Below are positions 5,774-52,775 of a stretch of 64,000 nucleotides of DNA, one piece after another. The position numbers were made by a program, and so were the translations under genes. The notes below the pieces were generated by a model, which had not been told where the DNA came from, did not search any database, and saw only the letters and a list, made by a program, of their open reading frames with translations. How positions within the stretch are numbered: position 1 is the stretch's first letter; every line of letters starts with the position of its first letter. This stretch comes from Malacoraja senta (taxonomy: Eukaryota), in contig CM075995.1 in assembly GCA_038087875.1 (NCBI GenBank), positions 1,738,001 to 1,802,000 of the forward strand, written 5' to 3'.

Positions 5774-6113
5774 TTAAGGGATGAGCACTTTTCGTAACTT
5801 TGTCGGCACTTTTGAGGTGACTCTTTTGTGAACCATGTACTGAATTTCTGAACCTTGTACTGAATAGTTTAAACTGTACCTAGCTGGGTAAAAGTGACAA
5901 TAAAGTATCATCATGATCATTATCATCATCAATCATGTTTTTGCGTTCTCCATGATATTAACTTCATGGTAAGACCCAGTTCTGAATTGGTCAGGGTCTG
6001 AATGGCAACAGGATACTAGGCTGGTCAGAACAACAGAAATAACAAAATTAATAGCTGGAGATCTCCCATCTGTGGCTCTGCCAGATGAGTTTGAGTTTAG
6101 TTTATTGTCATGT

Positions 6114-6629
6114 GTTCACGAGATTGATCCCTAGGTTCACGAGATTGATCCCTGGGATGGCGGGACTGTCATATGAGGATAGATTGAAAAGACCAGGCTT
6201 GTATTCACTGGAGTTTAGTAGGATGAGGGGGGATCTTATAGAAACATATAAAATTATAAAAGGACTGGACAAGCTAGATGCAGGAAAAATGTTCCCAATG
6301 TTGGGCGAGTCCAGAACCAGGGGCCACAGTCTTAGAATAAAGGGGAGGCCATTTAAGACTGAGGTGAGAAAAAAACGTTTTCACCCAGAGAGTTGTGAAT
6401 TTGTGGAATTCCCTGCCACAGAGGGCAGTGGAGGCCAAATCACTGGATGGATTTAAGAGAGAGTTAGATAGAGCTCTAGGGGCTAGTGGAATCAAGGGAT
6501 ATGGGGAGAAGACAGGCACGGGTTATTGATTTGGGACGATAAGCCATGATCACAATGAATGGCGGTGCTGGCTCGAAGGGCCGAATGGCCTCCTCCTGCA
6601 CCTATTTTCTATGTTTCTATGTTTCTATG
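6114..6629 (+). mobile_element. CR1 LINE 3' fragment
   Basis: RFTRLIPGMAGLSYEDRL...LEFSRMRGDLIETYKII motif, CR1 3' UTR and (TTTCTATG)n tail. Confidence 0.85.
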
Positions 6630-7172: not shown

Positions 7173-7676
7173 AGGTATGAATAGTTTAAAGCAGCGTTTC
7201 CCCGGAACACTGGGGTTCTGCGAGAGGTCGCCAGGGGTTCCGAGCGAAATAGTGATAAAAATGGGCTAATCGCATTTATCTGCAATTTTGAGTCATTTTT
7301 TGTGTTTAATTTCATATTCGTAATTTTATTAATCACGTACGGCATAGTTAGCGACGTCATATTTCGTGACGTCTATACGGCGCCAGCGTGAAACGGCCTT
7401 TAGTGGTCAGTGGACAGGAAATATATTATGTTGTTAAAGAAGGAACTGCAGATGCTGGAAAATCGAAGGTACACAAAAATGCTGGAGAAACTCAGCGGGT
7501 GCAGCAGCATCTATGGAGCGAAGGAAATAGGTAACGTTTCGGGCCGAAACCCTTCTTCAGACTGATAGGGGGTGGGGAGAAGAAAGGAAAAAAGGAAAAG
7601 GAGGAGGAGGAGCCCGAGGGTGGGGGGAGGGGAGGAGACAACCAGATGGCTGATGAAGGGGAGGGGACAGCCAGGG

Positions 7677-9695
7677 CTAGCAGAATTGGGAGAATTCAAC
7701 GTTCAGGCCACCAGGGTGTAGACTGCCCAAGCGGAATATGAGGTGCATTTCCTCCAATTTACGGTGTTGCTCGCTGTGGCCATGGAGGAGACCCAGGACA
7801 GAGAGGTCAGATACGGAATGGGAGGGGGAGTTGAAGTGCTGAGCCACCGGGAGTTCAGGTTGGTTATTGCGGACCGACCGGAGGTGTTCGGCGAAACGAT
7901 CGCCAAGCCTCCGCTTGGTCTCACCGATGTAGATCAGCTGGCATCTAGAGCAGCGAATGCAATAGATGAGGTTGGAGGAGATGCAGGTGAACCTCTGTCG
8001 CACCTGGAACGACTGCTTGGGTCCTTGAATGGAGTGGAGGGGGGAGGTGAAGGGACAAGTGTTGCATCTCTTGCGGTTGCAAGGGAAAGTACCAGGGGAG
8101 GGGGTGGTATGGGAGGGAAGGGAAGAATTGACAAGGGAGTTACGGAGGGAGCGGTCTTTGCGGAAGGCAGACATAGGGGGAGATGGGAAGATGTGGCGAG
8201 TGGTGGGGTCACGTTGGAGGTGGCGAAACTGACGGAGGATCACTTGTTGTATGTGACGGCTGGTGGGGTGAAAGGTGAGGACTAGGGGGACTCTGCCTTT
8301 GTTGTGAGTGGGGGGATGGGGAGAGAGAGCAGTGTTGCGGGGTATGGCAGAGACCCTGGTGCGAGCCTCATCTATGGTGGAGGAGGGGAACCCCCGTTCC
8401 CTGAAGAATGAGGACATTTCAGATGCCCTGGTGTGGAACGCCTCATCCTGGGAGCAGATGCGGCGTAGACGGAGGAATTGGGAGTGGGGGATGGAGTCCT
8501 TACAGGAAGCAGGGTGGGAAGAAGTGTAGTCCAGATAGCCATGGGAGTCGGTAGGTTTGTAGTGGATGTCGGTAAGGAGTCTATCACCTGCGATGGAGAT
8601 AGTGAGGTCAAGGAATGGTAGGGAAGTGTCGGAAATGGTCCAGGTGTATTTAAGTGCCGGATGGAAGTTGGTGGTGAAGCGGATGAAGTCAGTCAGTTGT
8701 GTGTGGGTGCAGGATGTGGCACCAAAACAATCATCGATGTAGCGGAGGTAGAGGTCGGGGATGGGGCCCTGGTACGCATTGAACAGGGATTGTTCTACGT
8801 ACCCGACAAAGAGGCAGGCGTAGCTGGGGCCCATGCGTGTGCCCATAGCTACGCCTTGTATTTGGAGGAAATGGGAGGAGTCGAATGAAAAGTTATTAAG
8901 TGTAAGTACCAGCTCCGCTAGGCGGAGGAGGGTGTCAGTGGCCGGGTATAGATTGCTTCTCCGGTCGAGGAAAAAACGGAGGGCTTTGAGACCATCCTGG
9001 TGGGGGATGGAGGTGTACAGTGACTGGACGTCCATGGTGAAGATGAGGGGGTGAGGGCCTAGAGAGTGGAATGCGCGGAGATGACGGAGAGTGTCTGAGG
9101 TGTCTTGAACATAGGTGGGGAGGGATTTAACCAAGGGGGATAGTATGGAGTCGAGGTAGGTGGAGATGAGTTCGGTGGGGCAAGAACAGGCAGAGACAAT
9201 GGGTCTACCGGGACAGTCAGGTTTGTGGATTTTGGGGAGAAGGTAAAAGCGGGCTGTGCGGGGCTGGGGAACGATGAGGTTGGAGGCTCGTTCGGGCAGG
9301 GCGTGGGAGTGGATGAAGTTGGTGATGGTGCTGGAGATGGTGGCCTGGTGCTCGTCAGTGGGGTCATGGTCCAGGGGTAAGTAGGAAGAGGTGTCCGAGA
9401 GTTGGCGCGTGGCCTCAGCTTTGTAGAGGTCGACGCGCCAGACTACCACGGCACCTCCCTTGTCGGCGGGTTTGATAACCCAATCTAGGTTGTTGCGGAG
9501 TGATACCACAGCCACATCTGCTTCCTCGGGGCATGCCTGCGCCTCCATCTCATACCTCATGGCTTCCAGCTCCAGTTCCCTACTTCCCAGTTCGGACCTC
9601 AGCCGGACTATCGGTACCGACTGGCTATCTACCGGCATACCCAACAATTCTCCACCCGGGCACTGAGATCCACACTGACTGCGATGCGCCGGCAT
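7677..9695 (-). CDS. Inverted PLE arm ORF: RT plus GIY-YIG endonuclease fused to 64 antisense-derived N-terminal codons
   Basis: From SLRNNLDWVIKPADKGG onward the translation is identical to the plus-strand ORF. The N-terminus is the antisense of 9504-9695. Confidence 0.5.
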   Translation of the reverse strand: MPAHRSQCGSQCPGGELLGMPVDSQSVPIVRLRSELGSRELELEAMRYEMEAQACPEEADVAVVSLRNNLDWVIKPADKGGAVVVWRVDLYKAEATRQLSDTSSYLPLDHDPTDEHQATISSTITNFIHSHALPERASNLIVPQPRTARFYLLPKIHKPDCPGRPIVSACSCPTELISTYLDSILSPLVKSLPTYVQDTSDTLRHLRAFHSLGPHPLIFTMDVQSLYTSIPHQDGLKALRFFLDRRSNLYPATDTLLRLAELVLTLNNFSFDSSHFLQIQGVAMGTRMGPSYACLFVGYVEQSLFNAYQGPIPDLYLRYIDDCFGATSCTHTQLTDFIRFTTNFHPALKYTWTISDTSLPFLDLTISIAGDRLLTDIHYKPTDSHGYLDYTSSHPASCKDSIPHSQFLRLRRICSQDEAFHTRASEMSSFFRERGFPSSTIDEARTRVSAIPRNTALSPHPPTHNKGRVPLVLTFHPTSRHIQQVILRQFRHLQRDPTTRHIFPSPPMSAFRKDRSLRNSLVNSSLPSHTTPSPGTFPCNRKRCNTCPFTSPLHSIQGPKQSFQVRQRFTCISSNLIYCIRCSRCQLIYIGETKRRLGDRFAEHLRSVRNNQPELPVAQHFNSPSHSVSDLSVLGLLHGHSEQHRKLEEMHLIFRLGSLHPGGLNVEFSQFC

Positions 9696-12600
9696 CAGCA
9701 GGACCTCGCATTGACTCTCCCGGAACTTCGGGCCTCACTCACCCAGACCTGCAACGGACCACAACTGTACTTTATCCGCCGGAAGATCCACCTCTTCAAT
9801 AAAAGATTCCTGGCCCACCTCAACTCCACCAAGGACCTTAAATTAGCCCGCCTCCAGGCCGCTCCCGCCGCCGACTCTCCGCGACTCGACCGCCCGCTGG
9901 CTCCGGGCCCCAACTCCGGCCCGCATCGCCTGCCCCGGTCCCGCGACGCCATCTTGTCCACGGGGAGCGACTCCAGTACTCACCAGGACGCCATCTTGTC
10001 CACGGGGAGCGCCTCCAGTACTCACCAGGAGGTCGCCTTCACCGACCTCCACGTCGATGCTGCCGCCGACCTTCACCTGCCTACCGATGACGCCCAGGCT
10101 CGCCGCTTCTACGGTAACTCGGACTTCCTTCCCCTCGCCGATTCCTCCGAACCTCGCCGCCCCCCGGGACCTCCCAGCATCGCCGCCGGACCGGGCCCAT
10201 CCAGCATCGCCGCCGGACCGGGCCCACTCTACACGGCCGCCGGACCGGGGATCCACGAACTTGGCCGCCGCACCGCACCCTATTCACCCCGTCGCCTCAC
10301 CGGACTGGTCGAACCGCGCCGCCCCACCGACCATCCGCTTACCGGGACCTCCCACGCATCGCCCGTGGACCCCGACTCTACTGCCCACCCACCCCGACCA
10401 TCGGGTCCGCCGACCCTCGCCACTGCAACGCCCTCCAGCCCCACCGACCCCGACTACACTGCCCACGGACCCCGACCATCGGGTCCGCCGACCCTCGCCA
10501 CTGCAACGCCCTCCAGCCCCACCGACCCCGACTACACTGCCCACGGACCCCGACCATCGGGTCCGCTGACCCTCGCCACTGCAACGCCCTCCAGCCCCAC
10601 CGACCCCGACTACACTGCCCACGGACCCCGACCGTCGGGTCCGCTGACCCTCGCCACTGCACCTCCCTCCAGCAGCCCGCAGCCGTCGCCTTACCTGCAA
10701 ACTGGACTCTGTACTGGGCCTGAAGCCTCCACGCTGTTCACTCCCACTCTCCGGGGTTTGACTCCACTGGGTCCTAGCGCTAGTCTGCCTAGCCCTGGTT
10801 ATCTCAGTGGCAGTTCCACTGATTCTTCCCCATCCCTCTCCAACTATGGGACCACTTCTCTTCCACACCCACACCACTGCCCTCTCACCCCCCCACCCCC
10901 TGACCACCCACCACCCCCCCACCACACATCGCCTCGTCCCCATTACACCCACCTGCCTTCCTCCGGCCCCAACCCCCATCCCTGCCGGGTGTTCACCATC
11001 CCCCCCGACCTCCCCCTCTCCGACATCGAACGGTCTGTCCTCAGCAGAGGTCTTACCTTTGTCCCCCTCCGTCCCCATCTCAATGAGTTCCGTGCCCTCC
11101 ATGACTTGGAACGCTTCTACCGTCGCCTCCGCCTCACAGCTCACTTCCATGGGAAGCAGTCCTCGCTCCCCACTGATGACCCCTTTTCCCGTCTCCAACG
11201 CACCCCATCCTCATGGAACCCCCCTCGCAGCCTTCCGGCTTTAGAACTCTTTATTAAAAACTGCCGCCGTGACATCCACCGCCTCAACTTCTCCACTCCC
11301 CTGTCCCACTCCAATCTCTCCCCCCTTGAACGCACTGCCATCGACTCACTCCGCAACAACCTAGATTGGGTTATCAAACCCGCCGACAAGGGAGGTGCCG
11401 TGGTAGTCTGGCGCGTCGACCTCTACAAAGCTGAGGCCACGCGCCAACTCTCGGACACCTCTTCCTACTTACCCCTGGACCATGACCCCACTGACGAGCA
11501 CCAGGCCACCATCTCCAGCACCATCACCAACTTCATCCACTCCCACGCCCTGCCCGAACGAGCCTCCAACCTCATCGTTCCCCAGCCCCGCACAGCCCGC
11601 TTTTACCTTCTCCCCAAAATCCACAAACCTGACTGTCCCGGTAGACCCATTGTCTCTGCCTGTTCTTGCCCCACCGAACTCATCTCCACCTACCTCGACT
11701 CCATACTATCCCCCTTGGTTAAATCCCTCCCCACCTATGTTCAAGACACCTCAGACACTCTCCGTCATCTCCGCGCATTCCACTCTCTAGGCCCTCACCC
11801 CCTCATCTTCACCATGGACGTCCAGTCACTGTACACCTCCATCCCCCACCAGGATGGTCTCAAAGCCCTCCGTTTTTTCCTCGACCGGAGAAGCAATCTA
11901 TACCCGGCCACTGACACCCTCCTCCGCCTAGCGGAGCTGGTACTTACACTTAATAACTTTTCATTCGACTCCTCCCATTTCCTCCAAATACAAGGCGTAG
12001 CTATGGGCACACGCATGGGCCCCAGCTACGCCTGCCTCTTTGTCGGGTACGTAGAACAATCCCTGTTCAATGCGTACCAGGGCCCCATCCCCGACCTCTA
12101 CCTCCGCTACATCGATGATTGTTTTGGTGCCACATCCTGCACCCACACACAACTGACTGACTTCATCCGCTTCACCACCAACTTCCATCCGGCACTTAAA
12201 TACACCTGGACCATTTCCGACACTTCCCTACCATTCCTTGACCTCACTATCTCCATCGCAGGTGATAGACTCCTTACCGACATCCACTACAAACCTACCG
12301 ACTCCCATGGCTATCTGGACTACACTTCTTCCCACCCTGCTTCCTGTAAGGACTCCATCCCCCACTCCCAATTCCTCCGTCTACGCCGCATCTGCTCCCA
12401 GGATGAGGCGTTCCACACCAGGGCATCTGAAATGTCCTCATTCTTCAGGGAACGGGGGTTCCCCTCCTCCACCATAGATGAGGCTCGCACCAGGGTCTCT
12501 GCCATACCCCGCAACACTGCTCTCTCTCCCCATCCCCCCACTCACAACAAAGGCAGAGTCCCCCTAGTCCTCACCTTTCACCCCACCAGCCGTCACATAC

Positions 12601-13172
12601 AACAAGTGATCCTCCGTCAGTTTCGCCACCTCCAACGTGACCCCACCACTCGCCACATCTTCCCATCTCCCCCTATGTCTGCCTTCCGCAAAGACCGCTC
12701 CCTCCGTAACTCCCTTGTCAATTCTTCCCTTCCCTCCCATACCACCCCCTCCCCTGGTACTTTCCCTTGCAACCGCAAGAGATGCAACACTTGTCCCTTC
12801 ACCTCCCCCCTCCACTCCATTCAAGGACCCAAGCAGTCGTTCCAGGTGCGACAGAGGTTCACCTGCATCTCCTCCAACCTCATCTATTGCATTCGCTGCT
12901 CTAGATGCCAGCTGATCTACATCGGTGAGACCAAGCGGAGGCTTGGCGATCGTTTCGCCGAACACCTCCGGTCGGTCCGCAATAACCAACCTGAACTCCC
13001 GGTGGCTCAGCACTTCAACTCCCCCTCCCATTCCGTATCTGACCTCTCTGTCCTGGGTCTCCTCCATGGCCACAGCGAGCAACACCGTAAATTGGAGGAA
13101 ATGCACCTCATATTCCGCTTGGGCAGTCTACACCCTGGTGGCCTGAACGTTGAATTCTCCCAATTCTGCTAG
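9684..13172 (+). CDS. Penelope-like reverse transcriptase / GIY-YIG endonuclease polyprotein (frame open from 9504)
   Basis: PLE RT motifs IKPADKGG, FYLLPKIHK, GRPIVS, TMDVQSLYTSIP, QIQGVAMGT, RYIDD and FLDL. Cys linker CNRKRCNTC. GIY-YIG-like NLIYCIRC...YIGET...R..EH, ending in GLN. Confidence 0.92.
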   Translation: MRRHQQDLALTLPELRASLTQTCNGPQLYFIRRKIHLFNKRFLAHLNSTKDLKLARLQAAPAADSPRLDRPLAPGPNSGPHRLPRSRDAILSTGSDSSTHQDAILSTGSASSTHQEVAFTDLHVDAAADLHLPTDDAQARRFYGNSDFLPLADSSEPRRPPGPPSIAAGPGPSSIAAGPGPLYTAAGPGIHELGRRTAPYSPRRLTGLVEPRRPTDHPLTGTSHASPVDPDSTAHPPRPSGPPTLATATPSSPTDPDYTAHGPRPSGPPTLATATPSSPTDPDYTAHGPRPSGPLTLATATPSSPTDPDYTAHGPRPSGPLTLATAPPSSSPQPSPYLQTGLCTGPEASTLFTPTLRGLTPLGPSASLPSPGYLSGSSTDSSPSLSNYGTTSLPHPHHCPLTPPPPDHPPPPHHTSPRPHYTHLPSSGPNPHPCRVFTIPPDLPLSDIERSVLSRGLTFVPLRPHLNEFRALHDLERFYRRLRLTAHFHGKQSSLPTDDPFSRLQRTPSSWNPPRSLPALELFIKNCRRDIHRLNFSTPLSHSNLSPLERTAIDSLRNNLDWVIKPADKGGAVVVWRVDLYKAEATRQLSDTSSYLPLDHDPTDEHQATISSTITNFIHSHALPERASNLIVPQPRTARFYLLPKIHKPDCPGRPIVSACSCPTELISTYLDSILSPLVKSLPTYVQDTSDTLRHLRAFHSLGPHPLIFTMDVQSLYTSIPHQDGLKALRFFLDRRSNLYPATDTLLRLAELVLTLNNFSFDSSHFLQIQGVAMGTRMGPSYACLFVGYVEQSLFNAYQGPIPDLYLRYIDDCFGATSCTHTQLTDFIRFTTNFHPALKYTWTISDTSLPFLDLTISIAGDRLLTDIHYKPTDSHGYLDYTSSHPASCKDSIPHSQFLRLRRICSQDEAFHTRASEMSSFFRERGFPSSTIDEARTRVSAIPRNTALSPHPPTHNKGRVPLVLTFHPTSRHIQQVILRQFRHLQRDPTTRHIFPSPPMSAFRKDRSLRNSLVNSSLPSHTTPSPGTFPCNRKRCNTCPFTSPLHSIQGPKQSFQVRQRFTCISSNLIYCIRCSRCQLIYIGETKRRLGDRFAEHLRSVRNNQPELPVAQHFNSPSHSVSDLSVLGLLHGHSEQHRKLEEMHLIFRLGSLHPGGLNVEFSQFC
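10368..10679 (+). repeat. 78-bp in-frame tandem repeat x4 inside the PLE ORF
   Basis: 26-aa unit DPDYTAHGPRPSGPPTLATATPSSPT repeated four times. Confidence 0.9.
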
Positions 13173-13284
13173 CCCTGGCTGTCCCCTCCCCTTCATCAGC
13201 CATCTGGTTGTCTCCTCCCCTCCCCCCACCCTCGGGCTCCTCCTCCTCCTTTTCCTTTTTTCCTTTCTTCTCCCCACCCCCTAT

Positions 13285-13320
13285 CAGTCTGAAGAAGGGT
13301 TTCGGCCCGAAACGTTACCT
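13285..13320 (+). ncRNA. Minimal type I hammerhead ribozyme motif in the PLE terminal repeat (mirror copy at 7529-7564 minus; another at 24668-24703 plus)
   Basis: CUGAAGA-A-[GGGU UUCG GCCC]-GAAACGUU. Conserved core, stem II with a UUCG loop, palindromic ACGU in place of stem III. Stem I is weak. Confidence 0.65.
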
Positions 13321-14373
13321 ATTTCCTTCGCTCCATAGATGCTGCTGCACCCGCTGAGTTTCTCCAGCATTTTTGTGTACCTAGGAAATATATTATGTTT
13401 GCCTTATGAACTTTGTTTATGAAAGAGAAAGAAAGAGATTAATAAAGATATATAATATTATTTATGTAGGGGTTCCCTGAGACATGAAAATTATTTTAAG
13501 GGTTCCGCAAGGGTAAAAAGGTTGGGAAACGCTGGTTTAAAGTTAGAAATGCTGCTGTCGGAGGAGAGGTTTGAAAGTGTGGAGCGACTGTAATGAATGA
13601 TTGCAGATCCACTTCCGTGAGCAGCACACAAAGAGGCTCCTGGGTTGGACGCCATCTTGGACCAATTTGTGGTTGTGACTGTCAAAGCTTTTAAGCACTT
13701 TCAGAGCTTGTGAATGTCAGAAACATTCAAACACCATTCAAGTCCTGTGAAATATTTATTACTTTTCCTAAAGCTCTTAAAAAATGTTTTTTAAGAAAGT
13801 GCCTCAAAACTAATTACAAGCATTCCAGCAAATTACAAAAAGTGGTGAACTAATCATGTATCGGTACACTGTTAATAGCCCGGTTGTAATCATGTATTGC
13901 CTTTCCGCTGACTGGATAGCACGCAACATAAGCTTTTCACTGTACCTCGGTACATGCGACAATAAACTAAACTGAAACTGAAACTGAACACTGCCCCGTC
14001 GATCGCAGGCAATGACCTCTCCACCATCGAAGGTATCTACAAGAGGCACTGTCTCAAAAAGGCAGCCAGCATCATTAAGGACCCGCACCACCCTGGCCAC
14101 GCTCTCATTTCATTCCAGCGGTCAGGAAGAAGGTACAGGATCCTGAAGACTGTAACGTCCAGGTTCAGGAGCAGCTTCTTCCCAACAACCATCAGGTTAT
14201 TAAACACCACGAACTCCAACTAAACTCCGAACTACAAATGTGCCTGCATTACACTAGGGGCTTTTTGCAATGTATTGTTGTTTTAAAATGTATCGGACCT
14301 GTTTTTTTCTGAAGATAGACACAAAATGCTGTAGTAACTCAGCCGGTCAGGCAGCATCTCTGGAGAAAATGGA

Positions 14374-21500: not shown

Positions 21501-21970
21501 ACAGAAACCCATGGCCAATGCATACAACTAGTTTATAGCATAAGAGCAGTCACAGCCAGTTGCCGCCAATTATAGTATGTGTACACCACATCAGTAGCTC
21601 AATTGTTAAACAGAACTGTGTTTGTGTAGTGCTATACCAGGTGTGTGCACATGTAACTTAATGTCTGTTAATTGCACGCAGCGAGGAGATCACTGTGTAG
21701 TTGGTTAAACAAAACCTTACGAGGCATCTAAGCAAAGCTCTCTCATATTAAATACATTTTAAAAGAGAGTAGGAAGGAACTACAGATGCTGGTTTACACC
21801 GAAGATAGACACAAAATGCTGGAGTAACTCAGCGGGACAGGCAGCATCTCTGGAGAGAAGGAATGGGTGACGTTTCGGGTCGAGACCCTTCTTCAGACTG
21901 ACAACCCCTATCCTACACACACACTAGGGACAATTTACGATTTTACCAAACCAATTAAACTACAAACCTA

Positions 21971-22177
21971 AGGTAGACAAAAATGCTGGAGAAACTCAGC
22001 GGGTGGGGCAGCACCTATGGAGCGAAGGAAATACAGTAGGTCTTCAGGTCTGAAGAAGGGTCTCGACCCGAAACATTGCCTATTTCCTTCGCTCCATAGA
22101 TGCTGCCTCACCCGCTGAGTTTCTCCAGCATTTTTGTCTACCTTCGATTTTCCAGCATCTGCAGTTCCTTCTTAAAC
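21971..22177. mobile_element. Miniature pLTR fold-back from a second PLE subfamily
   Basis: Inverted stub starting aggtagac, plus a forward pLTR with hammerhead (gggtctcgaccc variant) and tail. Confidence 0.7.
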
Positions 22178-24798
22178 AACCTACAAACTGGTCTCTGTAC
22201 TGGGCCGGAAGCCCCATCCTTCTCCAACTATGGGACCCCTTCTCTTCTCCACCCACACTACAGCCCTCTCACCCCCCCACCCCCTGACCACCCACCACCC
22301 CCCCACCACACATCGCCTCGTCCCCATTCCACACACCTGCCTTCCTCCGGCCCCAACCCCCATCCCTGCCGGGTGTTCACCATCCCCCCCCCCCGACCTC
22401 CCCCTCTCCGACATCGAACGGTCTGTCCTCAGCAGAGGTCTTACCTTTGTCCCCCTCCGTCCCCACCTCAATGAGTTCCGCGCCCTCCATGACTTGGAAC
22501 GCTTCTACCGTCGCCTCCGCCTCACAGCTCACTTCCATGGGAAGGCGTCCTCGCCCCCCACTGATGACCCCTTTTCCCGTCTCCAACGCACCCCCTCCTC
22601 GTGGAACCCCCCTCGTAGCCTTCCGGCTTTAGAGCTCTTCATCAAAAACTGCCGCCGTGACATCAACCGCCTCAACTTCTCCACTCCCCTGTCTCACTCC
22701 AATCTCTCCCCCCCTGAACGCACTGCCATCGACTCACTCCGCAACAACCTAGATTAGGTTATCAAACCCGCCGACAAGGGAGGTGCTGTGGTAGTCTGGC
22801 GCGTCGATCTCTACAAAGCTGAGGCCACGCGCCAACTCTCGGACACCTCCTCCTACTTACCCCTGGACCATAACCCCACTGACGAGCACTAGGCCACCAT
22901 CTCCAGCACCATCACCGACTTCATCCACTCCCACGCCCTGCCCGACCGAGCCTCCAACCTCATCGTACCCCAGCCCCGCACAGCCCACTTTTACCTTCTC
23001 CCCAAAATCCACAAACCTGACTGTCCCGGTAGACCCATTGTCTCTGCCTGTTCGTGCCCCACCGAACTCATCTCCACCTACCTCGACTCCATCCTATCCC
23101 CCTTGGTTAAATCCCTCCCCACCTATGTTCAAGACACCTCAGACACTCTCCGTCGTCTCCGCGCATTCCACTCTCTAGGCCCTCACCCCCTCATCTTCAC
23201 CATGGACGTCCAGTCATTGTACACCTCCATCCCCCACCAGGATGGTCTCGAAGCCCTCCGTTTTTTCCTCGACCATAGAAGCAACCTATACCCGGCCACT
23301 GACACCCTCCTCCGCCTAGCAGAGCTGGTCCTTACCCTCAATAACTTCTCATTTGACTCCTCCCATTTCCTCCAAATACAAGGCGTAGCTATGGGCACGC
23401 GCATGGGCCCCAGCTACGCCTGCCTCTTTGTCGGGTACGTAGAACAATCCTTGTTCAATGCGTACCAGGGCCCCATCCCCGACCTCTACCTCCGCTACAT
23501 CGATGACTGTTTTGGTGCCACATCCTGCACCCACACACAACTGACTGACTTCATCCGCTTCACCACCAACTTCCATCCGGCACTCAAATACACCTGGACC
23601 ATTTCCGACACTTCCCTACCATTCCTTGACCTCACTATCTCCATCGCAGGTGATAGACTTCTTACCGACATCCACTACAAACCTACCGACTCCCATGGCT
23701 ATCTGGACTACACTTCTTCCCACCCTGCTTCCTGTAAGGACTCCATCCCCCACTCCCAATTCCTCCGTCTATGCCGCATCTGCCTCCCAGGATGAGGCGT
23801 TCCACACCAGGGCATCCGAAATGTCCTCATTTTTCAGGGAACGGGGGTTCCCCTCCTCCACCATAGATGAGACTCGTACCAGGGTCTCTGCCATACCCCG
23901 CAACACTGCTCTCTCTCCCCATCCCCCCACTCACAACAAGGACAGAGTCCCCCTAGTCCTCACCTTTCACCCCACCAGCTGTCACATACAACAAGTGATC
24001 CTCCGTCAGTTTCGCCACCTCCAACGTGACCCCACCACTCGCCACATCTTCCCATCTCCCCCCATGTCTGCCTTCCGCAAAGACCGCTCCCTCCGTAACT
24101 CCCTTGTCAATTCTTCCCTTCCCTCCCGTACCACCCCCTCCCCGGGTACTTTCCCTTGCAACCGCAAGAGATGCAACACTTGTCCCTTCACCTCCCCCCT
24201 CGACTCCATTCAAGGACCTAAGCAGTCGTTCCAAGTGCGATAGAGGTTCACCTGCATCTCCTCCAACCTCATCTATTGCATCCGCTGCTCTAGATGCCAG
24301 CTGATCTACATCGGTGAGACCAAGCGGAGGCTCGGCGATCGTTTCGCCGAACACCTCCGGTCGGTCCGCAATAACCAACCTGACCTCCCGGTGGCTCAGC
24401 ACTTCAACTCCCCCTCCCATTCCGTATCTGACCTCTCTCTCCTGGGTCTCCTCCATGGCCACAGCGAGCAACACCGGAAATTGGAGGAAATGCACCTCAT
24501 ATTCCGCTTGGGCAGTCTACATCCTGGGGGCTTGAACATTGAATTCTCCCAATTCTGCTAGCCCTTGCTGTCCCCTCCCCTTCATCAGCCCTCTGGTTGT
24601 CTCCTCCCCTCCCCCAGCCCTCGGGCTCCTCCTCCGCCTTTTTTCCTTTCTTCTCCCCACCCCCTATCAGTCTGAAGAAGGGTTTCGGCCCGAAACGTTA
24701 CCTGTTTCCTTCGCTCCATAGATGCTGCTGCACCCGCTGAGTTTCTCCAGCATTTTTGTGTACCTTCGATTTTCCAGCATCTGCAGTTCCTTCTTTAA
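22178..24798 (+). pseudogene. 5'-truncated, inactivated copy of the Neptune-type PLE
   Basis: Highly similar to 10693-13382 plus tail. Stops at 22755 (TAG), about 22890 and 24241, and frameshifts at about 22390 and 23785. Inserted in a minus-strand SINE, with tacaaaccta repeated at 21961-21970 and 24799-24808. Confidence 0.9.
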
Positions 24799-25829
24799 TA
24801 CAAACCTATACTTCTTTGGAGTGTTGGAGGAAACCGGAACTCCCGGAGAAAACCCACGCAGGTCATGGGGAGAACTTACAGGATCTAACTCAGATCTCTG
24901 GCGCTGTAAGGCAGCAACTCTACCGCTGCGCCTGCACCAGTTTAGTCTGAAGAAAGGGTCTCGACCCAAAACTTCACCCATTCCTCCTCTCCAGAGATGC
25001 TGCCTCTCCCACTGAGTTACTCCAGCATTTTGTGTCTATCTCTAGTTTAGTTTAGTTTAGTTTTGAGGTAGAGCATGGAAACAGGCTCTTCGGCCCACCG
25101 AGTCCGTGCTGACCAGCGATCCTCGCATATTAACACTAGCCTGGGGACGATTTACATTTACACAAGGCCAATTAACCTACAAACTTGCACGTCTTTGGAG
25201 CGTGGGAGGAAACTGAAGATCTCAGAGAAAAAAACCTACGCGGTCACGGGGAGAACGTACAAGCTCCGTAAAGACAGAACCTGGGTCTCTGGCGCTGTAG
25301 GCGCTGTGAGGCAGCAACTCTACTGATCAAACCACCATGCCGCACATGTTGGGTGTTCCAGTGCTAGGCCTGGAAGATGTTGGGTGCAATCTCAGAGTCT
25401 GCTGAATGATCTGATTTTGGGCTGGTACATAATGGTTCAGCATGGCCGCCGCGGTGAGTTGGCCTCAGTGCCATAGCTAGGCAGCAAAACCTGGCCAGGC
25501 TTCTGGCTGTGCAGTGACCTCTGCTGGACATGGCAGCGGTGAGGCTGGTCAATGGGAACAAGATAAGGCTTAGCTCTGATACCCGGTTACCGTAAAATAG
25601 CCCAGTTTTGCGCACATCTCCTGACTCAGGGGCAGTGTCTTCCCAGCTGTTATCAGGCACATAAATGTAAATTGTCCCCAGTGTGTGTAGGATAGCGTTA
25701 ATGTGTGGGGATCGCTGGTTGGCGCAGACTCGGTGGGCCAAAGAGCCTGTTTCCGTGCTGTATCTCTAAACTAAACTAAAAAACTAAACTGAACCATCCT
25801 CCCAACAACTAGAGAGCAGTCCTGACCTA

Positions 25830-30359: not shown

Positions 30360-32077
30360 GATCGAAAAGGTTGACTGAGGATCTAGTGGGAGGGAGGAAC
30401 TGAAGGGAATCCACATTAGTCAGGAAGCGGTGTTTAGGGCCTGTCCCACTATGGCGACCTAATTTGCGAGTTTAGAAGAGTTTGCGCTCGCTTGCTGAAA
30501 AAGTGTCTCCAGTCCTTCTCCCCCCCCTTCTCTCCCCTTCTCTCCCCTTCTCCCCCCTTCTCTCCCCTTCTCTCCCCTTCTCCCCCCCCTGCTCTTTTAA
30601 AGGACTTACCGTACATTGTGCCAGCCGTCTTTTACCTTCCTGTTCATCGCGGGTATCACCTTGGCTTTGCACCGTATGAATTTCAGACAGCGCACCCCCC
30701 CCTTTCCCTGGCCCCCGCCTTTGCGATGTGTTTGTGTGTATGTGTGTGTTTGTGTGTGCTGCCGGTTGATCCGGCTTGCGGTTTCATCGCTGACGGTCGA
30801 TCCAGCTCGAGATTTCTCAGGCGAGTGCCCCCGAGCATGAAGGTCGAAGACAGTTGCTGAAAAGTCGCGTAAGTGGGACAGGCCCTTTAGGTAAACTGTT
30901 GTGACTGAAGGCAGATAAATCCCCAGGGCCTGATGGCCTGCATCCCAGAGTACTCAAGGAGATGGCCCTAGAAATCGTGGATGCATTGGTGATCATTTTC
31001 CAATGTTCTCTCGACTCTGGATCACTTCCTGTGGACTAGAGGGTAGCCAATGTAACCCCAGTTTTTAAGAATGGAGGGAGAGAGAAAACGGGGAATTATA
31101 GACCAGTTAGCCTTACATCGGTAGTGGGGAAGATGTTTGAGTCGATTATTAAAGATGTTATAGCAGCACATTTGGAAAGCAGTGACGGGATCGGTCAAAG
31201 TCAGCAAGGATTTATGATGGGGAACTCATGCTTGACTAATCTTCTGGAATTTTTTAAGGATGTAACAAGTAGAATGGATAAGGGAGAGCCAGTGGATGTG
31301 GTGTATCAGGACTTTCAAAAGGCCTTTGACAAGGTCCCACACAAGAGATTAGTGTTCAAAATTAGAGCACATGGTATTGGGGGTAGGGTATTGACATGGA
31401 TAGAGAACTGGTTGGCAGACAGGAAGCAAAGAGTAGGAATTAACGGGTCCTTTTTAGAATGGCAAGTAGTGACTAGTCGGATGCCGCAAGGCTCAGTGCT
31501 GGGAACCCAGTTATTGACAATATATATTAACGATTTAGATGAGGATGACACAAAGCTGGGTGGCAGTGTGAGCTGCGATGAGGATGCTATGAGGCTGCAG
31601 GGTGACTTGGACAGGTTGGGTGAGTGGGCAGATGCATGGCAGATGCAGTATAATGTGGATAAATGTGAGGTTATCCACTTTGGTGCCTAGAACAGGAAGG
31701 CAGATTATTATCTGAATAATGTCAGATTAGGAGAAGAGGAGGTGCAACGAGACCTGGGTGTGCTTGTACATCAATCACTGAAAGTAAGCATTGCGAGAGG
31801 ATTTGAGTTTAGGAGCAAGGAGGTCTTACAGCAGTTGTAGAGGACCCTTGTGAGACCGCACCTGGAGTACTGTGTGCAATTTTGGTCTCCTAATTTGAGG
31901 AAGGACTTTATTGCTATTGAGGGAGTGCAGCGTAGGTTCACCAGGTTATTTCCCGGGATGGCAGGACAGACATATGATATAAGAATGGGTCGACTGGGCT
32001 TGTATTCACTGGAATTTAGAAGGATGGGAGGGGATCTTATAGAAACATATAACATTCTTAAAGGATTGGACAGGCTA
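30360..32077 (+). mobile_element. Decayed CR1 LINE RT region, interrupted by a MITE
   Basis: SCLTNLLEFF, DVVYQDFQKAFDKVPH, PQGSVLG, DDTKLGG and [13 protein letters not shown] motifs, with stops and deletions. Confidence 0.9.
30436..30886. mobile_element. PIF/Harbinger-type MITE inserted in CR1
   Basis: TIRs agggcctgtccca / tgggacaggccct. The CR1 sequence resumes as ttaggtaaactg. Confidence 0.75.
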
Positions 32078-34799
32078 TGGATGTGGATAAATTCGATGCC
32101 CCCTCCACATTCTTTGTAAGAAACGTGCCTGCACATCTCTATTAAACTTTCCCCCTTTTCACCTTATACCTATGTCCTCTAGTGTTGGATATTTCCACCC
32201 TGGGAGAAAGGTTTTGAATGTCTAATGCATCTGTGCCTCTCATCATTTTAATACTTCTATCCAGTCTGCCCACAATCTCCAACGTCCCGGAGAAAACAAT
32301 CCAAGTTTATCCAATCTCTCCTTGTAGCTGAAACCCTCTAATCCAGGCAATATTCTGGTAAACCTCCCATGCACCTTCTCCAAAGCCTCCACATCCTTCC
32401 TGTAATGGGGCGATCAGAACTGCACGCAATACTCCAAATGCAGCCTAACCACAGTATGGTGCAACTGCATCAAGACTTCCTGACTCAAGTCAAGTCAAGT
32501 CAAGTCAAGAGAGTTTATTGTCATGTGTCCCAGATAGGACAATGAAATTCTTGCTTTGCTTCAGCACAACAGAATATAGTAGGCATGAATACAGAACAGA
32601 TCAGTGTGTCCATATACCATTATATAAATATATACACACATCAATAAATAAGCAGATAAAGTGCGAATAAACAGATAATGGTCTATTAATGTTCAGAGAT
32701 TAATATCCTGATGGCTGTGGGGAAGTAGCTATTTCTGAACCTGGATGTTGTAGTCTTCAGGCTCCTGTACCTTCTACCTGAAGGTAGCGGGGAGATGAGT
32801 GTGTGGCTCTAATAATCAATGCCTCTGGAATTAAGGCAAGGACACCCTACGCCTTCTTTTCCATCCTATCTACTCGTGCTGTCACCTTCAGTGAGTTATG
32901 AACTTGGACTCCAAGATCCTTCTGTACAGCAATGCTGTCAAGGGTCTTGCCATTAACTCTGTACCTTCCCCTTACCTTCACTGGTCACTGGTCACCATGG
33001 ACTCGGTGGGTCGAAGTGCCTGTTTCCACGCTGTATCTCTAAACTAAGCTAAACTAAATTAAACTTGTTGACTCTCTTCACCACCGACCCATTGATGAAG
33101 ACCATGGCACTCACTTAAAGTTTACTTAAGATAGACACAACAAGCTGGAGTAACTCAGCGGGACAGGCAGCATCTCTGGAGAGAAGGAATGGGTGACGTT
33201 TCAGGTCGAGATACTTACTGTAAGTTTAGTTTAGAGATACAGCACGGAAACAGGCCCTTCGGCCCATCGAGTATGGGTCGACCAGTGATCCCCGCACATT
33301 AACACTATCCTACACGCATTAGGGACAATTTACATTCATAGCAAGCCAATTAACCTACAAACCTGTATGCCTTTGGAGTGTGGGAGGAAACCGAAGATCT
33401 CGGAGAAAACCCACGCAGGTTACAGGGAGGGTGTACAAACTCTGTACAGACAGCATAGAAACATAGAAACATAGGAAAATAGGTGCAGGTGGAGGCCATT
33501 CGGCCCTTTGAGCCAGCACCGCCATTCAATATGATCACGGCTGATCATCTAAAATCAGTACCCCGTTCCTGCTTTTTCCCCGTATCCCTTGATTCCTTTG
33601 GCCCTCAGAGCTAAATCTAACTCTCTCTTGAAAACATCCAGTGAATCGGCCTCCACTGCCCTCTGTGGCAGAGAATTCCACAGATTCACAACTCTCTGGG
33701 TGAAGAGGTTTTTCCTCATCTCATTCCTAAATGGCTGACCCCCCTATTCTTAAACTGTGACCCCTGGTTCTGGACTCCCCCAAACATCGGGAACATAGTA
33801 GTCAGGATTGAACCGGGGTCTCTGGCGCTGTAAGGTCGCTGCGCCACCAAGTTCAAGTTCAACTTCAAGTGGTTGGGCGTTCATATCTCTGAATACCTGC
33901 TGATGGCAACTGAAGTAAAGGAATTGAGTAACGAACCAAACTGAGTAATTAGAACAATCCTTTACGCCAATAAATGTTTCCATGCAACCAATTAATCAAC
34001 GCATTCACGAACTGCCACTTACGTTGGTCTCCTGATGAGTCAGCTACCAACAGAGAGGTTAATTCCCACAGAGCAATACGTTCTGGCACTCAATCCATGC
34101 ACACAGGGTTATTGTTCCTTGGACAATACAAAATTCCATAATATTGGAGTGGCTGATTAATGCAAGTTAGCCAACGTTTCCATTCATGGACTTCAGAATA
34201 GAAAATCAAATAGAGCGTGCCACGGCTTTAAGTTGGACATTCCCCCACAACTTTACATTCCTGGCAAGGTAAAATGTCACCCATTATCTCTAAGCAGCAG
34301 AGGCCTTAGTTACAAATCCAATAGTTCCAAGGGATAACTAATTCAGCGATCATCTGCATCAAACTTCTGCTACCTACCGCACAAACGGTTTTAAAAATGG
34401 ATCTTTCGTGCAAATGGCTTGGGGCGGCACGGTGGCGCAGCGGTAGAGTTGCTGCCTTGCAGCGCCAGAGACCCGGGTTCCCTGGACTTGGCATCATCTT
34501 TGATACAAACGATGTGGGCAGATGGGCCTGTTCCTGTGCTGTCCTGTGCAATTCTCTGCCACAGAAGGCAGTGGAGGCCAATTCACTGGATGTTTTTAAG
34601 AGAGCGTTAGATATATCTATTAGAGCTAATGGAATCAAGGGATATGGGGAGAAAGCAGGAACGGGGTACTGATTTTGGATGATCAGCCATGATCATATTG
34701 AATGGCGGTGCTGGCTCAAAGGGCCGAATGGCCTACTCCTTCATCTATTTTCTATGTTTCTATGTGTACTGGTCAATGTTTAATATTTGTGCATATAAT

Positions 34800-35986
34800 T
34801 ACATAGAAACATAGAAAAATAGGTGCAGGAGTAGGCCATTCGGCCCTTCGAGCCTGCACACCCATTCAATATGATCATGGCTGATCATCCAACTCAGTAT
34901 CCTGTACCTGCCTTCTCTCCATACCCCCTGATACCTTTAGCCACAGGGGCCACATCTAACTCCCTCTTAAATATAGCCAATGAACTGGCCTCAACTACCT
35001 TCTGTGGCAGAGAATTCCAGAGATTCACCACTCTCTGTGAAAAAAATGTTTTATCTCGTCTCGGTCCTAAAAGATTTCCCCCTAATCCTTAAACTGTGAC
35101 CCCTTGTTCTGGACTTCCCCAACATCGGGAATAATCTTCCTGCATCTAGCCTGTCCAACCCCTTAAGAATTTTGTAAGTTTCTATAAGATCCCCCCTCAA
35201 TCTTCTAAATTCTAGCGAGTACAAGCCAAGTCTATCCAGTCTTTCTTCATATGAAAGTCCTGACATCCCAGGAATCAGTCTATGAACCTTCTCTGTACTC
35301 CCTCTATGGCAAGAATGTCCTTCCTCAGATTAGGAGACCAAAACTGTACGCAATACTCCAGGTGTGGTCTCACCAAGACCCTGTACAACTGCAGTAGAAC
35401 CTCCCTGCTCCTATACTCAGATCCTTTTGCTATGAATGCTAACATACCATTCGCTTTCTTCACTGCCTGCTGCACCTGCATGCCTACTTTCAATGACTGG
35501 TGTACCATGACCCCCAGGTCTCGTTGCATCTCCCCTTTCCCTAATCGGCTACCATTCAGATAATAGTCTACTTTCCTGTTTTTGCCACCAAAGTGGATAA
35601 CCTCACATTTATCCACATTATACTGCATCTGCCATGCATTTGCCCACTCACCCAGCCTATCCAAGTCATCTTGCAGCCTCCTAGCATCCTCCTCACAGCT
35701 AACACTGCCCCCCAGCTTCGTGTCATCCACAAACTTGGAGATGTCGCATTCAATTCCCTCGTCCAAATCATTAATATATATTGTAAATAGCTGGGGTCCC
35801 AGCACTGAGCCTTGCGGTACCCCACTAGTCACTGCCTGCCATTCTGAAAAGGACCCGTTTACTCCTACTCTTTGCTTCCTGTCTGCCAGCCAGTTCTCTA
35901 TCCACATCAATACTGAACCCCCAATACCGTGTGCTTTAAGTTTGTATACTAATCTCTTATGTGGGACCTTGTCGAAAGCCTTCTGA
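34800..35986 (-). mobile_element. CR1 LINE RT 3' half with 3' UTR
   Basis: QKAFDKVPH...GVPQGSVLGP...FVDDTKLGG...[13 protein letters not shown]. The (ATAGAAAC)n tail is seen on the plus strand. Confidence 0.92.
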
Positions 35987-36109
35987 ATTGTGCTTATAAT
36001 GGGAACCGAAGACAATGGCTTCAGTCTTAATAATATTTAAGTAATAATAAGCATTTGTTTAATGGTTAGATCCATTGCACCCACGACATTGTATTGTGAT
36101 GTGGTATTG

Positions 36110-45881: not shown

Positions 45882-48127
45882 ATAGAGTCATAGAGTGATA
45901 CAGCATGGAAAACAGGCCCTTCGGCCCAACTCGTTATACCCGGCCAACGTGTCCCAGCTACACTGGTCCCACCTGCCTGTGTTTGGCCCATATCCCTCCA
46001 AACCTGTCCTTCCATGTACCTGTCTAACTGTTTCTCAACTACCTCCTCTGGCAGCTCATTCCATACACCCACCACCCTTTGTGTGAAAAAGTTACCTCTC
46101 AGATTCCTATTAAATCTTTTCCCCTTCACCTTAAACCTATGTCCTTGGTCCTCGATTTCAAGAGAGAGTTAGATTTAGCTCTTTGGCAAAGGGAATCAAG
46201 GGATATGGGGGAAAAGCGGAATGGGGTACTGATTTTCGATAATTAGCTATGATCATATTGAATGGCGGTGCTGGCTCGAAGGGCCAAATGGCCTACTCCT
46301 GCATGTATTTTCTATGTTACTCTGGGCAAGAGACTCTACTCGATCTATTCCACTCAGGATTTTATACACCTGTGTAAGATCACCACTTATCCTCCCGCGC
46401 TCCAAGGAATCGAGTCCCAGCCTGCTCAACCTCTCCCTCTCACTCAGCTCAGGCCCTCGTTCCCTGGAAACATCCTCGTAAATCTTCTCTGATTGGGAGG
46501 GGGAGTGAATAAAAGGACTGCAGCTATTCTGGAAGTACAATGCGATCAATTAGCAGGAACCGTGAAAGAATTGCCCACCTCTGCAGCTTGCAGTTGTCAC
46601 GTCCAGGCTAACACTTCCACACTTCCTACACACACTGACACTTACACACTTGCACTGCCCCTCGTCACACCCATTCTGGACTAAAACCGCAGTCATCACT
46701 TTAAATCCCCCTCCCATCCCACACTGACCTTTCTGTCCTGGGCCTCCTCCACTGTCAGAGTGAGGCCAAACGCATATTGGAGGAGCAGCACCTCACATTT
46801 CGCTTGGGCAGCTTACAACCCCAGGGGTATGAATTCTGATTTCTCTAACTTCAAGTAACCCTTGCTTTCCCTCTCTCTCTCCGTCCCCATCCAGCTAGTT
46901 TCACTGTCCTTCTGATTAATTTAACTGATTGTGTGACTCTTGTAACCTTCCCCTTAGAAACATAGAAACATAGAAAATAGGTGCAGGAGTAGGCCATTCG
47001 GCCCTTCGAGCCTGCACCGCCATTCAATATGATCATGGCTGATCATCCAACTCAGGATCCTGTACCTGCCTTCTCTCCATACCCCTGATCCCTTTAGCCA
47101 CAAGGGCCACATCTAACTCCCTCTTAAATATAGCCAAAGAACTGGCCTCAACTACCTTCTGTGGCAGAGAATGCCACAGATTCACCACTCTCTGTGTGAA
47201 TTCTAAGGGTCTCGACCCGAAACATCACCTATTCCTTTTCTCCAGAGAGGCTGTCTGACCCGCTAAGTAACTCCAACATGTTGCGTCTGTCTTCGGTTTA
47301 AACCAGCATCTGCATTTCCTTCCTACACGAAACGCCACCTATTCCTTTTTCTCTCCAGAGCTGCTGCCTGTCCCGCTGAGTTACTCCAGCATTTTGTGTC
47401 TATCTTCGGTATAAACCAGCATCTGCAGTTCCTACTTTTACACCTGGTCCCAGGTACCTGTGTCCGACTAGTTATGTCCTGGCTGTGGCTGCACACATTT
47501 CCTACATCCAGACTAATTCAGGAGAAGGAACAAGGTTTGACATTTAAAACGAGAGCCTTTGAAATGAGAGCGACTGCAACAAAACACACGTGTAGGGAGG
47601 AACTGCAGGTGCTGGTTTAAAGATATCTGCAGTTCCTTCCTACACATTGAACCATTCTACATTTGCCTATCACCGTCTGCTTCGAACTGCCCGTTTTCAG
47701 ATTCAGATTCAGATTCAGATTTATTGTCACATGCATCATGAAACTACAGCGATATTTGAGTTACCATGCAGCCATACAATTAAAAGAACGCTAGACCTTA
47801 ACATACACATCCACCACAGTGATCACTGTGATGGAAGGCAGTAAAGTTCCTCCTTTTGTTCACCCGTGGTCGGGGCCTTGACCCTCCGCAGTCGCCGTTA
47901 CGGACGGCCCGATGTACCAGTCCTCTCGTCGGGATGACCGCAGCTCCGACGTTGGGACGGACGGAACACACATTGCGGCTTCGCCTGCCCGAATGGGCCA
48001 CTTTCACACCTTAGCCCTCCATAGCTCTGTCTCCCTCTCCCCTAACTCGCAGTGTGAAGAAGGGTCTCGACCCAAAATGTCACCCATTCAGACCCCCCTT
48101 CCCCCCCTCCCCTGTCCCCATACTGCC

Positions 48128-48672
48128 TTGCTACACACCCTGACACTTGCACACTTGCACACTTGCTAAACACCCTGACACTAACACACTTGTTACATAT
48201 TCTGACACACACTTGCTACGCATCCTGATAGTTACACACTTGCTACACACCCTGGCATGTACACACTTGTTACACACCCTGACACTTACACACATGTTAC
48301 ACACCCGACACTTACGCAGTTGCTACATACCCTGATACTCACACAATTGCTACACACCCTGACACTTACACACTTGTTACACACCCTGACACTTACACAC
48401 TTGTTACACAACCTGACACTTACACATTTGTTACACAACCTGACACTTACACACTTGTTACACACCCGACACTTACACACTTGTTACACACCCTGGCACT
48501 TACACACTTGTTACACACCCTGACACTTACATACTTGTTACACCCCTGACACTTACACACTTGCTGCACACCCTGACACTTACACACTTGTTACACACCC
48601 TGACACTTACACACTTGTTACACACCCTGACACTTACACATTTGCTACACACCTTGACACTTACACACTTAC
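48128..48672 (+). repeat. 27-bp minisatellite (ttgttacacaccctgacacttacacac)n, copy A
   Basis: 9-aa periodicity (LLHTLTLTH) in the translations and visible tandem units. Confidence 0.92.
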
Positions 48673-49033
48673 TGCTCCCCTGGTCCCGCCCACTCTGGGA
48701 ACAAGCGCAGTCATTGGAGGCCGGCTCATGGTCTGCTGCCACCGCCGGCTGCTGATTGGCCTGTCGGGCCGTCAATCATCCCCTCTCACAGCCCCGCCCC
48801 CTCCACTGTTATAAATGCCACTGAGCTGCAACACTTGAGTATTTCACACCGCTGCAAGTCGGCGGAGGAAGACCTGCAGGCGGTACATATTATCCACAAG
48901 GCTGACCTCGCTGGGGCTTTTTTTTTTAAACCTTGTTACTTAATTCCCTCCTTTTGCAAAGGATCAGACTTGCAGGAATCGCCTGCAATTGGCATCTGCA
49001 GTAGGAGTGAGGAAATATTGCTGTCCAGTTGCA

Positions 49034-49375: not shown

Positions 49376-49472
49376 GTAAAAGCAAAACCAGCGCCGGCTA
49401 TAAACTTCACTCCTGCTCTGCATTCCTTCAAATGCAACGCTTGCCTCCCACATATATTGCTCCAAGCTCAAT

Positions 49473-49545
<73 letters not shown>

Positions 49546-50001: not shown

Positions 50002-50053
<52 letters not shown>

Positions 50054-52680: not shown

Positions 52681-52715
<35 letters not shown>

Positions 52716-52775
52716 CCTGCCCTCTCCGCCCGCCCTTCTCTCTCTCTCTCTCTCCCTCCCTCCCTCTCTCTCTGG

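What the first reader, a model, noticed from the sequence alone, without database searches (positions are those of the whole stretch)
7416..13399. Very young Neptune-type Penelope element with a 2037-bp inverted arm duplicating the whole RT-endonuclease core
Seen: 7467-9503 mirrors 11346-13382 (all ORF-track translations are identical) around an 1842-bp spacer. The ORF has no stops and the TSD is perfect. Known: PLE insertions often have inverted terminal repeats, usually short. Inference: this was a single recent event from an active family in which both target ends primed long cDNAs. Any read-through transcript would fold into about 2 kb of dsRNA, a potential endo-siRNA, piRNA or ADAR trigger against the whole family, about 35-40 kb upstream of id4.
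Basis: partly seen in the sequence, partly recalled or inferred. Interest (0 to 1): 0.72.

Follow-up and report, generated by a model that had tools for sequence, protein, structure and literature searches.

The report
Ordinary two-armed Penelope retroelement insertion
A recently inserted jumping gene sits here as two incomplete copies back to back, the usual published way this class of element lands; only the length and perfect match of the mirrored part stand out.

Summary
7467-9503 is the exact reverse complement of 11346-13382 (2037 of 2037 bases), with a perfect 17-bp TSD and a 1222-codon stop-free RT/GIY-YIG frame.

1. A 34-nt 'tail' (7433-7466) sits on the short arm only. Runs of related sequence show the same two family-wide 3' ends.
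2. The main copy is 5'-truncated. It lacks the start codon, about 39 codons and the upstream pLTR, so it is not a source element.
3. The two copies appear to join through a 2-nt microhomology.

This is the published layout of Penelope-like elements (PLEs): an inverted 5'-truncated copy, a one-sided tail and a TSD. Two more units in this window show it. siRNAs from long Penelope inverted repeats are already reported in Drosophila.

Best mechanism (about 0.75): both ends of one staggered cut primed reverse transcription from the element's two start sites, on one RNA or identical RNAs. The tail on the short arm argues against a DNA fold-back. Transcription, dsRNA and any effect on the ID gene are untested, and no read bridging a junction was seen. 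Verdict: new member of a known kind, interest 0.2.

The parts
7416..7432 (+). Left copy of the 17-bp AT-rich target-site duplication (its last base may also be the element's terminal base)
   Evidence: family contigs begin at 7432
7433..7466 (-). 34-nt PLE 'tail', present at this end only
   Evidence: loose ends at 7432 and at 7466/7467; same tail in the second copy
7467..9503 (-). Inverted 5'-truncated copy (3' UTR/pLTR, endonuclease, RT core), identical to 11346-13382
7525..7560 (-). Minimal hammerhead-ribozyme core in the left pLTR (motif match only)
   Evidence: not found by Rfam
9502..9503 (.). Head-to-head junction; 2 bases shared by the arm's end and the family sequence upstream of the main copy (microhomology)
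   Evidence: 5 contigs of X1 and record 15 of X17 match from 9502 and run on upstream
9504..13172 (+). 5'-truncated ORF, 1222 codons, no stop: N-terminal domain, long Pro/Ser/Thr-rich linker, RT (DKG, YIDD), CX2-5CxxC linker, C-terminal GIY-YIG
10368..10673 (+). In-frame 78-bp tandem repeat, 3.9 copies, inside the low-complexity linker
11346..13382 (+). Part of the main copy mirrored by the left arm; ends at the tail-less site
13289..13324 (+). Minimal hammerhead-ribozyme core in the right pLTR (motif match only)
13383..13399 (+). Right copy of the TSD

Best explanation
One recent integration event of an endonuclease-bearing Penelope-like retrotransposon of Neptune type. The element's GIY-YIG domain cut both strands of an AT-rich target 17 nt apart (inferred from the TSD). 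Each 3' end primed reverse transcription. The left end started at the distal start site, so it carries the 34-nt tail, and stopped after 2071 nt. The right end started at the internal site, has no tail, and stopped after 3879 nt, about 39 codons short of the ORF start. The two cDNA ends were joined head to head through 2 shared bases and the second strands were filled in. Both cDNAs were copied from one RNA or from identical RNAs of one source copy. The product is a headless, probably non-autonomous copy whose 2-kb inverted repeat is a by-product of two long cDNAs. Shown: anatomy, identity, TSD, tail asymmetry, 5' truncation, two family-wide ends. Inferred: cutting geometry, double priming, end joining, template number.
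For: Exact arms and TSD. The tail lies on the short arm and is missing from the long copy, so the short arm cannot have been copied from the long copy's DNA, and the long copy has 1842 bp that the short arm lacks. Public runs show unrelated flanks (agreement 0.36-0.42) before 7432 (176 contigs in X1, 106 in X2, 46 in X17) and before 7466/7467 (16 and 14 in X17): two family-wide ends. A lizard PLE protein cuts and extends both strands, prefers AT-rich DNA, starts at two adjacent RNA sites that delimit the tail, and is predicted to be a dimer (PMC11167929). At 11 of 11 listed arm sites where 75% or more of X1 depth has another letter, both arms carry the minority letter and the window's second copy carries the majority letter, so the arms share a source and were not polished to a family consensus. 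The same layout with a TSD occurs at 21961-24808 and 63438-63782.
Against: The assembly has a gap with a probable false duplication 35 kb away. Sequence alone cannot separate one RNA from two identical RNAs, nor exclude later gene conversion between the arms. PMC3846280 reads inverted PLE junctions as self-priming on an antisense template. 10 of 13 candidate units tested in the window gave no TSD above chance.
Confidence: 0.75

Rival explanations
1. The inverted unit existed at a parent locus, was transcribed as one hairpin RNA and was retrotransposed whole, or a single cDNA switched to an antisense template (self-priming model).
For: PMC3846280 argues for self-priming on antisense templates and bidirectional pLTR promoters. 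Identical arms fit one precursor.
Against: Both outer ends fall on the family's two RT start sites. There is no palindrome at the junction, only 2 shared bases. Family contigs shown run straight through both break points in the normal element (loose ends at 9502 and 9503).
Confidence: 0.12
2. The arms were laid down in one event but from different or older templates, and owe their identity to later gene conversion between the inverted repeats, so the insertion is older than it looks.
For: Inverted repeats 1.8 kb apart can convert each other (general knowledge). Zero differences only bounds divergence at 0.15%.
Against: The TSD is perfect and the whole 1222-codon frame, including the unpaired spacer, has no stop or frameshift. 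The second copy in the window, 96.4% alike, has 3 stops and a frameshift.
Confidence: 0.06
3. Assembly artefact: a fold-back chimera or a collapsed repeat made the inverted arm.
For: No bridging contig shown. The assembly has a probable false duplication at the N gap. PMC8557442 warns that such structures trouble assemblies.
Against: An artefact would not give a 17-bp TSD at both outer ends, a tail on one side only, and ends at the family's two start sites. The arms carry minority alleles. The false duplicates nearby differ by 3-5% with indels, the arms by 0.
Confidence: 0.05
4. The locus works as a hairpin-RNA source (endo-siRNA, ADAR or piRNA trigger) that silences the family, or it affects the ID gene.
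For: A read-through RNA would pair perfectly over 2037 nt. In transgenic Drosophila, siRNAs map exactly to Penelope long inverted repeats (PMC3681739).
Against: No host gene was found spanning the unit among frames of 130 codons or more (short exons and non-coding transcripts are not excluded). Sense-directed pLTR promoters would point outwards (inference). The same review says these siRNAs do not silence Penelope efficiently. This reading is compatible with the best explanation, not exclusive of it.
Confidence: 0.08

Closest known systems
Canonical EN+ Penelope-like element insertions (Penelope/Poseidon, Neptune, Nematis, Naiad; Craig et al. 2021, PMC8557442, text and Fig. 2 legend; passages seen)
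   Same: An inverted 5'-truncated copy adjacent to the 5' end, inverted repeats flanking the unit, a 30-40-bp tail at one end, strong 5' truncation, RT plus C-terminal GIY-YIG, CX2-5CxxC linker.
   Different: The main copy has no direct upstream pLTR. The inverted arm is 2 kb. The target is AT-rich unique sequence, not a microsatellite. The N-terminal linker is longer (496 residues between two marker motifs) than in all 67 measurable homologues (median 135, maximum 407).
Pen2a_Av of Adineta vaga (Arkhipova et al. 2013, PMC3846280; passages seen)
   Same: Inverted pLTR, TSD around the whole unit, a 31-bp tail on one inverted pLTR, microhomology 5' junctions noted in the family.
   Different: There the inverted part is under 0.25 kb and the junctions are palindromic. 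Here it is 2071 bp with a 2-base junction.
Poseidon from Anolis carolinensis, PAc (Frangieh et al. 2024, PMC11167929; parts 1-2 of 4 read)
   Same: Two RT start sites delimiting the tail, AT-rich target, both strands cut and extended, no primer-template homology needed, hammerhead motif in the pLTR.
   Different: Another clade (Poseidon lacks the Cys linker). Shown in vitro there, inferred from the genome here.
Rearranged Penelope copies with long inverted repeats in transgenic Drosophila melanogaster (Evgen'ev 2013, PMC3681739; passages seen)
   Same: Long inverted repeats in fresh insertions; siRNAs map to the inverted regions.
   Different: siRNA was measured there. Nothing on transcription is known for this locus.

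Membership tests
EN+ Penelope-like elements | [quoted passage not shown] | tested here: met
   Pfam RVT_1 at residues 706-875 (E 6.5e-6) and GIY-YIG at 1126-1159 (E 0.0015), both below gathering score. 236 homologues at E<=0.001 among 8000 candidates, the best 54% identical over 99% of the RT-EN part, carrying PF00078 and some PF01541.
EN+ Penelope-like elements | DKG motif upstream of the RT core; YxDD | tested here: met
   DKG at residue 628, YIDD at 869
EN+ Penelope-like elements | [quoted passage not shown] | tested here: met
   34 nt at 7433-7466 only; two family-wide ends
EN+ Penelope-like elements | Inverted 5'-truncated copy adjacent to the 5' end; TSD | tested here: met
EN+ Penelope-like elements | Direct pLTR / partial tandem upstream of the ORF (needed for an autonomous copy) | tested here: not met
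   The main copy is truncated inside the ORF. The second copy in the window has a direct pLTR with tail at 22047-22178. This bears on autonomy of this copy, not on family membership.
EN+ Penelope-like elements | Minimal hammerhead ribozyme in the pLTR | tested here: inconclusive
   Core motif with a 4-bp stem II found by my own pattern: 9 hits in the window against a mean of 0.22 (maximum 2) in 50 shuffles. Rfam found no hammerhead. Cleavage not testable.
EN+ Penelope-like elements | CCHH motif in the endonuclease | not tested
   CxxC inside the GIY-YIG stretch and later histidines are visible; not aligned to references
Neptune clade | CX2-5CxxC linker between RT and EN (shared with Nematis) | tested here: met
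   Match at residue 1089; 108 of 111 homologues with a YIG-like motif carry the pattern upstream of it; definition from PMC8557442
Neptune clade | RT phylogeny with named Neptune references | not testable with these tools
   No named reference elements in the libraries searched. Neptune over Nematis rests on a vertebrate host (ID-family gene) and on bioRxiv 10.64898/2026.07.22.740005, which found only Neptune and Poseidon in its vertebrates.

The most novel reading that the evidence does not exclude
The unit is transcribed as one RNA (from antisense pLTR activity or a non-coding transcript of the ID-gene region), folds into a 2-kb perfect duplex and is a main source of endo-siRNA or edited RNA against a still-active Penelope family in a vertebrate. 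Double priming would then build the family's own silencing loci.
Probability: 0.07. Interest if true: 0.55.

Novelty: new member of a known kind. Interest (0 to 1): 0.2.

Why it matters
By itself little: it is a clean, large example of a published insertion pattern. Its value is as a specimen. The steps after first-strand synthesis in PLE integration are not yet validated (PMC11167929). This copy has a tail on the short arm, extra sequence on the long copy and shared minority alleles, which fits two independent RNA-templated cDNAs from one source and not a DNA fold-back. A genome-wide tally of such pairs in this host would test the dimer/double-priming model in vivo. If the locus also makes small RNA, it would extend a Drosophila result to a vertebrate.

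Tried and rejected
- Whole-genome search: no genome is held for this window, so no copy number, junction uniqueness or arm-length distribution.
- First homologue search with the whole ORF: 0 hits among 8000 candidates, because the words came from the low-complexity first 500 residues. Repeated on residues 490-1222.
- Rfam: 0 matches at gathering score in the window; 2 chance-level matches in the pLTR, no hammerhead.
- Sequencing runs: no RNA holder listed, which is no evidence on expression.
- Editing: run X17 (RNA by guess, another organism, 0.12 of the words) showed A>G 40 and G>A 45 against 34 and 44 in X1. This is uninformative: contigs, family-wide, no matched DNA.
- Junctions: no bridging contig and no empty-site contig among the rows shown; a hole proves nothing there.
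- PDB: no relative of the RT-EN part at E<0.27.
- Promoter scan: bacterial type, not applicable.
- Fold of the RNA 3' end: the tail pairs back on upstream sequence and the tail-less end falls in an unpaired stretch, but z is only -2.09, with 8 of 200 shuffles as good. Kept as a hint.
- PMC9977147: passages held nothing on long inverted arms.
- Rejected: DNA fold-back of the long copy (tail on the short arm); polishing to family consensus; 'intact source element'.
- Searches for long inverted PLE arms in vertebrates or for twin priming in PLEs listed no paper on it. The library lacks most subscription papers, and supplements were not read, so this is no claim of absence.

Full report
OBSERVATION. 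A self-comparison of the window shows 7467-9503 to be the reverse complement of 11346-13382 with 0 differences in 2037 bases. A 17-bp AT-rich sequence occurs at 7416-7432 and 13383-13399 and nowhere else in the window. Among 298 random position pairs the best exact flank match reached 10 or more 4 times and never 13. The frame 9504-13172 (+) has 1222 codons and no stop.

(1) Between the left TSD and the arm lie 34 bases (7433-7466) that continue the element's 3' end and are absent from the right end. The second copy in the window carries the same 34 bases at its right end. This is the PLE tail. Contigs run on into unrelated sequence (agreement 0.36-0.42) before 7432 (176 contigs in X1, 106 in X2, 46 in X17) and before 7466/7467 (16 and 14 in X17) (3,477 further loose ends not shown). 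So the family has two 3' ends, and this insertion uses one on each side. (2) The main copy is headless. 65 of 120 homologues align to its first 125 residues at E<1e-3 and extend a median of 39 residues further upstream. Five contigs of X1 and one piece of X17 match from 9502 and continue upstream. Read by hand, the X1 loose end is open in the ORF's frame and ends like the basic motif that precedes this point in the homologues. There is no start codon at the break and no upstream direct pLTR. (3) Because those contigs match from 9502, the last two bases of the arm are shared with the family sequence upstream of the main copy: a 2-base microhomology.

THE PROTEIN. [quoted passage not shown] The RT-EN part has 236 relatives among 8000 candidates, up to 54% identical over 99% of its length, and 3,965 representatives at E<1e-30. 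DKG, YIDD and a CX2-5CxxC linker are present. PMC8557442 gives this linker as the mark of Neptune and Nematis (passages). Neptune is the likelier label because the host is a vertebrate: there is an ID-family gene (that it is ID4 is my recall), and bioRxiv 10.64898/2026.07.22.740005 found only Neptune and Poseidon in its vertebrates (passages). I could not build a tree with named references. The stretch between the N-terminal motif and the RT is a Pro/Ser/Thr-rich linker of 496 residues with a 78-bp repeat, longer than in all 67 of 257 homologues where it could be measured (median 135, maximum 407). Contigs of all four runs cover the part of it that was laid, so it seems a family trait. The pLTR holds a minimal hammerhead core by my own pattern (9 hits in the window, mean 0.22 in 50 shuffles). 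Rfam does not find it. Such motifs are described for PLE pLTRs (PMC4209133, parts 1-2 of 4 read).

AGE AND ACTIVITY. Zero differences bound arm divergence at 0.15% (95%). If the host is a cartilaginous fish (my recall from the look of its repeats, not tested) with the epaulette shark's 7e-10 mutations per base per generation (PMC10587355, passages), that allows up to about a million generations. So it is young for a transposon copy, but not dated to the present. The second copy (96.4% alike, 3 stops and a frameshift) differs at codon positions 1/2/3 as 20/11/44 (p about 1e-5), the mark of selection on source lineages. In X1, 34,312 of 183,864 laid contigs are 99% or more alike. Among the 25 arm sites shown (40 of 245 rows shown), 11 have 75% or more of X1 depth on another letter. 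At all 11 both arms carry the minority letter and the second copy the majority letter. The arms therefore share one source and were not polished to a consensus. X1 may be another individual or species.

MECHANISM. The top strand after the left TSD and the bottom strand after the right TSD both read antisense to the element, as two cDNAs primed from the two 3' ends of a cut staggered by 17 nt would. The short arm has the tail that the long copy lacks, and the long copy has 1842 bases that the short arm lacks, so neither is a DNA copy of the other. Both look RNA-templated and joined at 2 shared bases. This matches the in vitro behaviour of a lizard PLE protein: it cuts and extends both strands of AT-rich DNA, starts at two adjacent RNA sites that delimit the tail, and is predicted to be a dimer; later steps are not yet validated (PMC11167929). 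I put this at 0.75. Rivals are a ready-made hairpin unit or antisense self-priming as argued in PMC3846280 (0.12), later gene conversion (0.06) and misassembly (0.05). Against my reading: no contig among those shown bridges a junction (lists cut), the assembly has a probable false duplication at the gap 50322-50521, and one RNA cannot be told from two identical RNAs.

IS IT UNUSUAL? [quoted passage not shown] PMC3846280 calls the same layout typical (passages). In this window, 3 of 13 candidate units that I tested have a TSD of 10 or more exact bases at their ends: this one, 21961-24808 and 63438-63782. All three are head to head with a tail on one side; the other 10 gave nothing above chance. 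Here the tail is on the short arm, while in the second copy it is on the long one, as independent priming predicts. Long inverted repeats in fresh Penelope copies, with siRNAs mapping exactly to them, are reported in transgenic Drosophila, where they do not silence the element efficiently (PMC3681739, passages). I found no paper giving arm lengths for vertebrate PLEs, but the library is incomplete and no supplements were read.

dsRNA AND THE ID GENE. A transcript across both arms would pair over 2037 nt, but nothing here shows one. No host gene spanning the unit was found among frames of 130 codons or more. Both pLTRs face outwards in the sense direction (inference). The ID-family gene appears twice, at about 49.0 and 53.9 kb, around the N gap; the first copy has frameshifts near its start. 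No link to the insertion was tested.

VERDICT. A real-looking, young, headless Neptune-type PLE insertion of the standard two-armed kind with a long arm. New member of a known kind; interest 0.2. Most novel open reading: a vertebrate hairpin small-RNA locus against an active family (probability 0.07, interest 0.55 if true).

Noticed in passing
window 21961-24808: Second copy of the same family (96.4% alike, 3 stops, a frameshift): short tail-less inverted arm, direct pLTR with tail, a fragment with a deletion of about 100 bp, then a 5'-truncated RT-EN copy with tail; 10-bp TSD.
   Followed up: yes
window 63438-63782: Small head-to-head unit of a related pLTR with a tail on one side and a 14-17-bp TSD.
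   Followed up: partly
window 46207-55210: About 4 kb duplicated on both sides of the N gap 50322-50521 (95-97% alike, many indels), including the ID-family gene; the first copy has frameshifts. Probably an uncollapsed assembly overlap, not a gene duplication.
   Followed up: partly
whole window: 45 matches to the element's last 269 bases (5 belong to the two large units); most others are short solo pLTRs that begin about 130-140 bases from the 3' end, just upstream of the hammerhead core, and end at either the tailed or the tail-less site.
   Followed up: partly
window 13337-13382 and 7433-7512 (-): An ATG in the pLTR opens a frame that runs without a stop through the tail (about 25 codons). 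Homologues place the true ORF start elsewhere, so its meaning is unclear.
   Followed up: no
window 13380-13385 and 21967-21974: At both tail-less junctions the target end and the cDNA start form a short palindrome or near-palindrome; two cases only, may be chance.
   Followed up: no
window 9943-10925: In-frame tandem repeats of 42, 27 and 78 bp make the N-terminal linker longer than in any measured homologue; this recalls the low-complexity inserts in Adineta Penelope ORFs (PMC3846280).
   Followed up: partly
window 31040-32163, 35278-36036, 6055-6627 and others: Many fragments that look like CR1-type LINE RT and 3' ends (label from recall).
   Followed up: no
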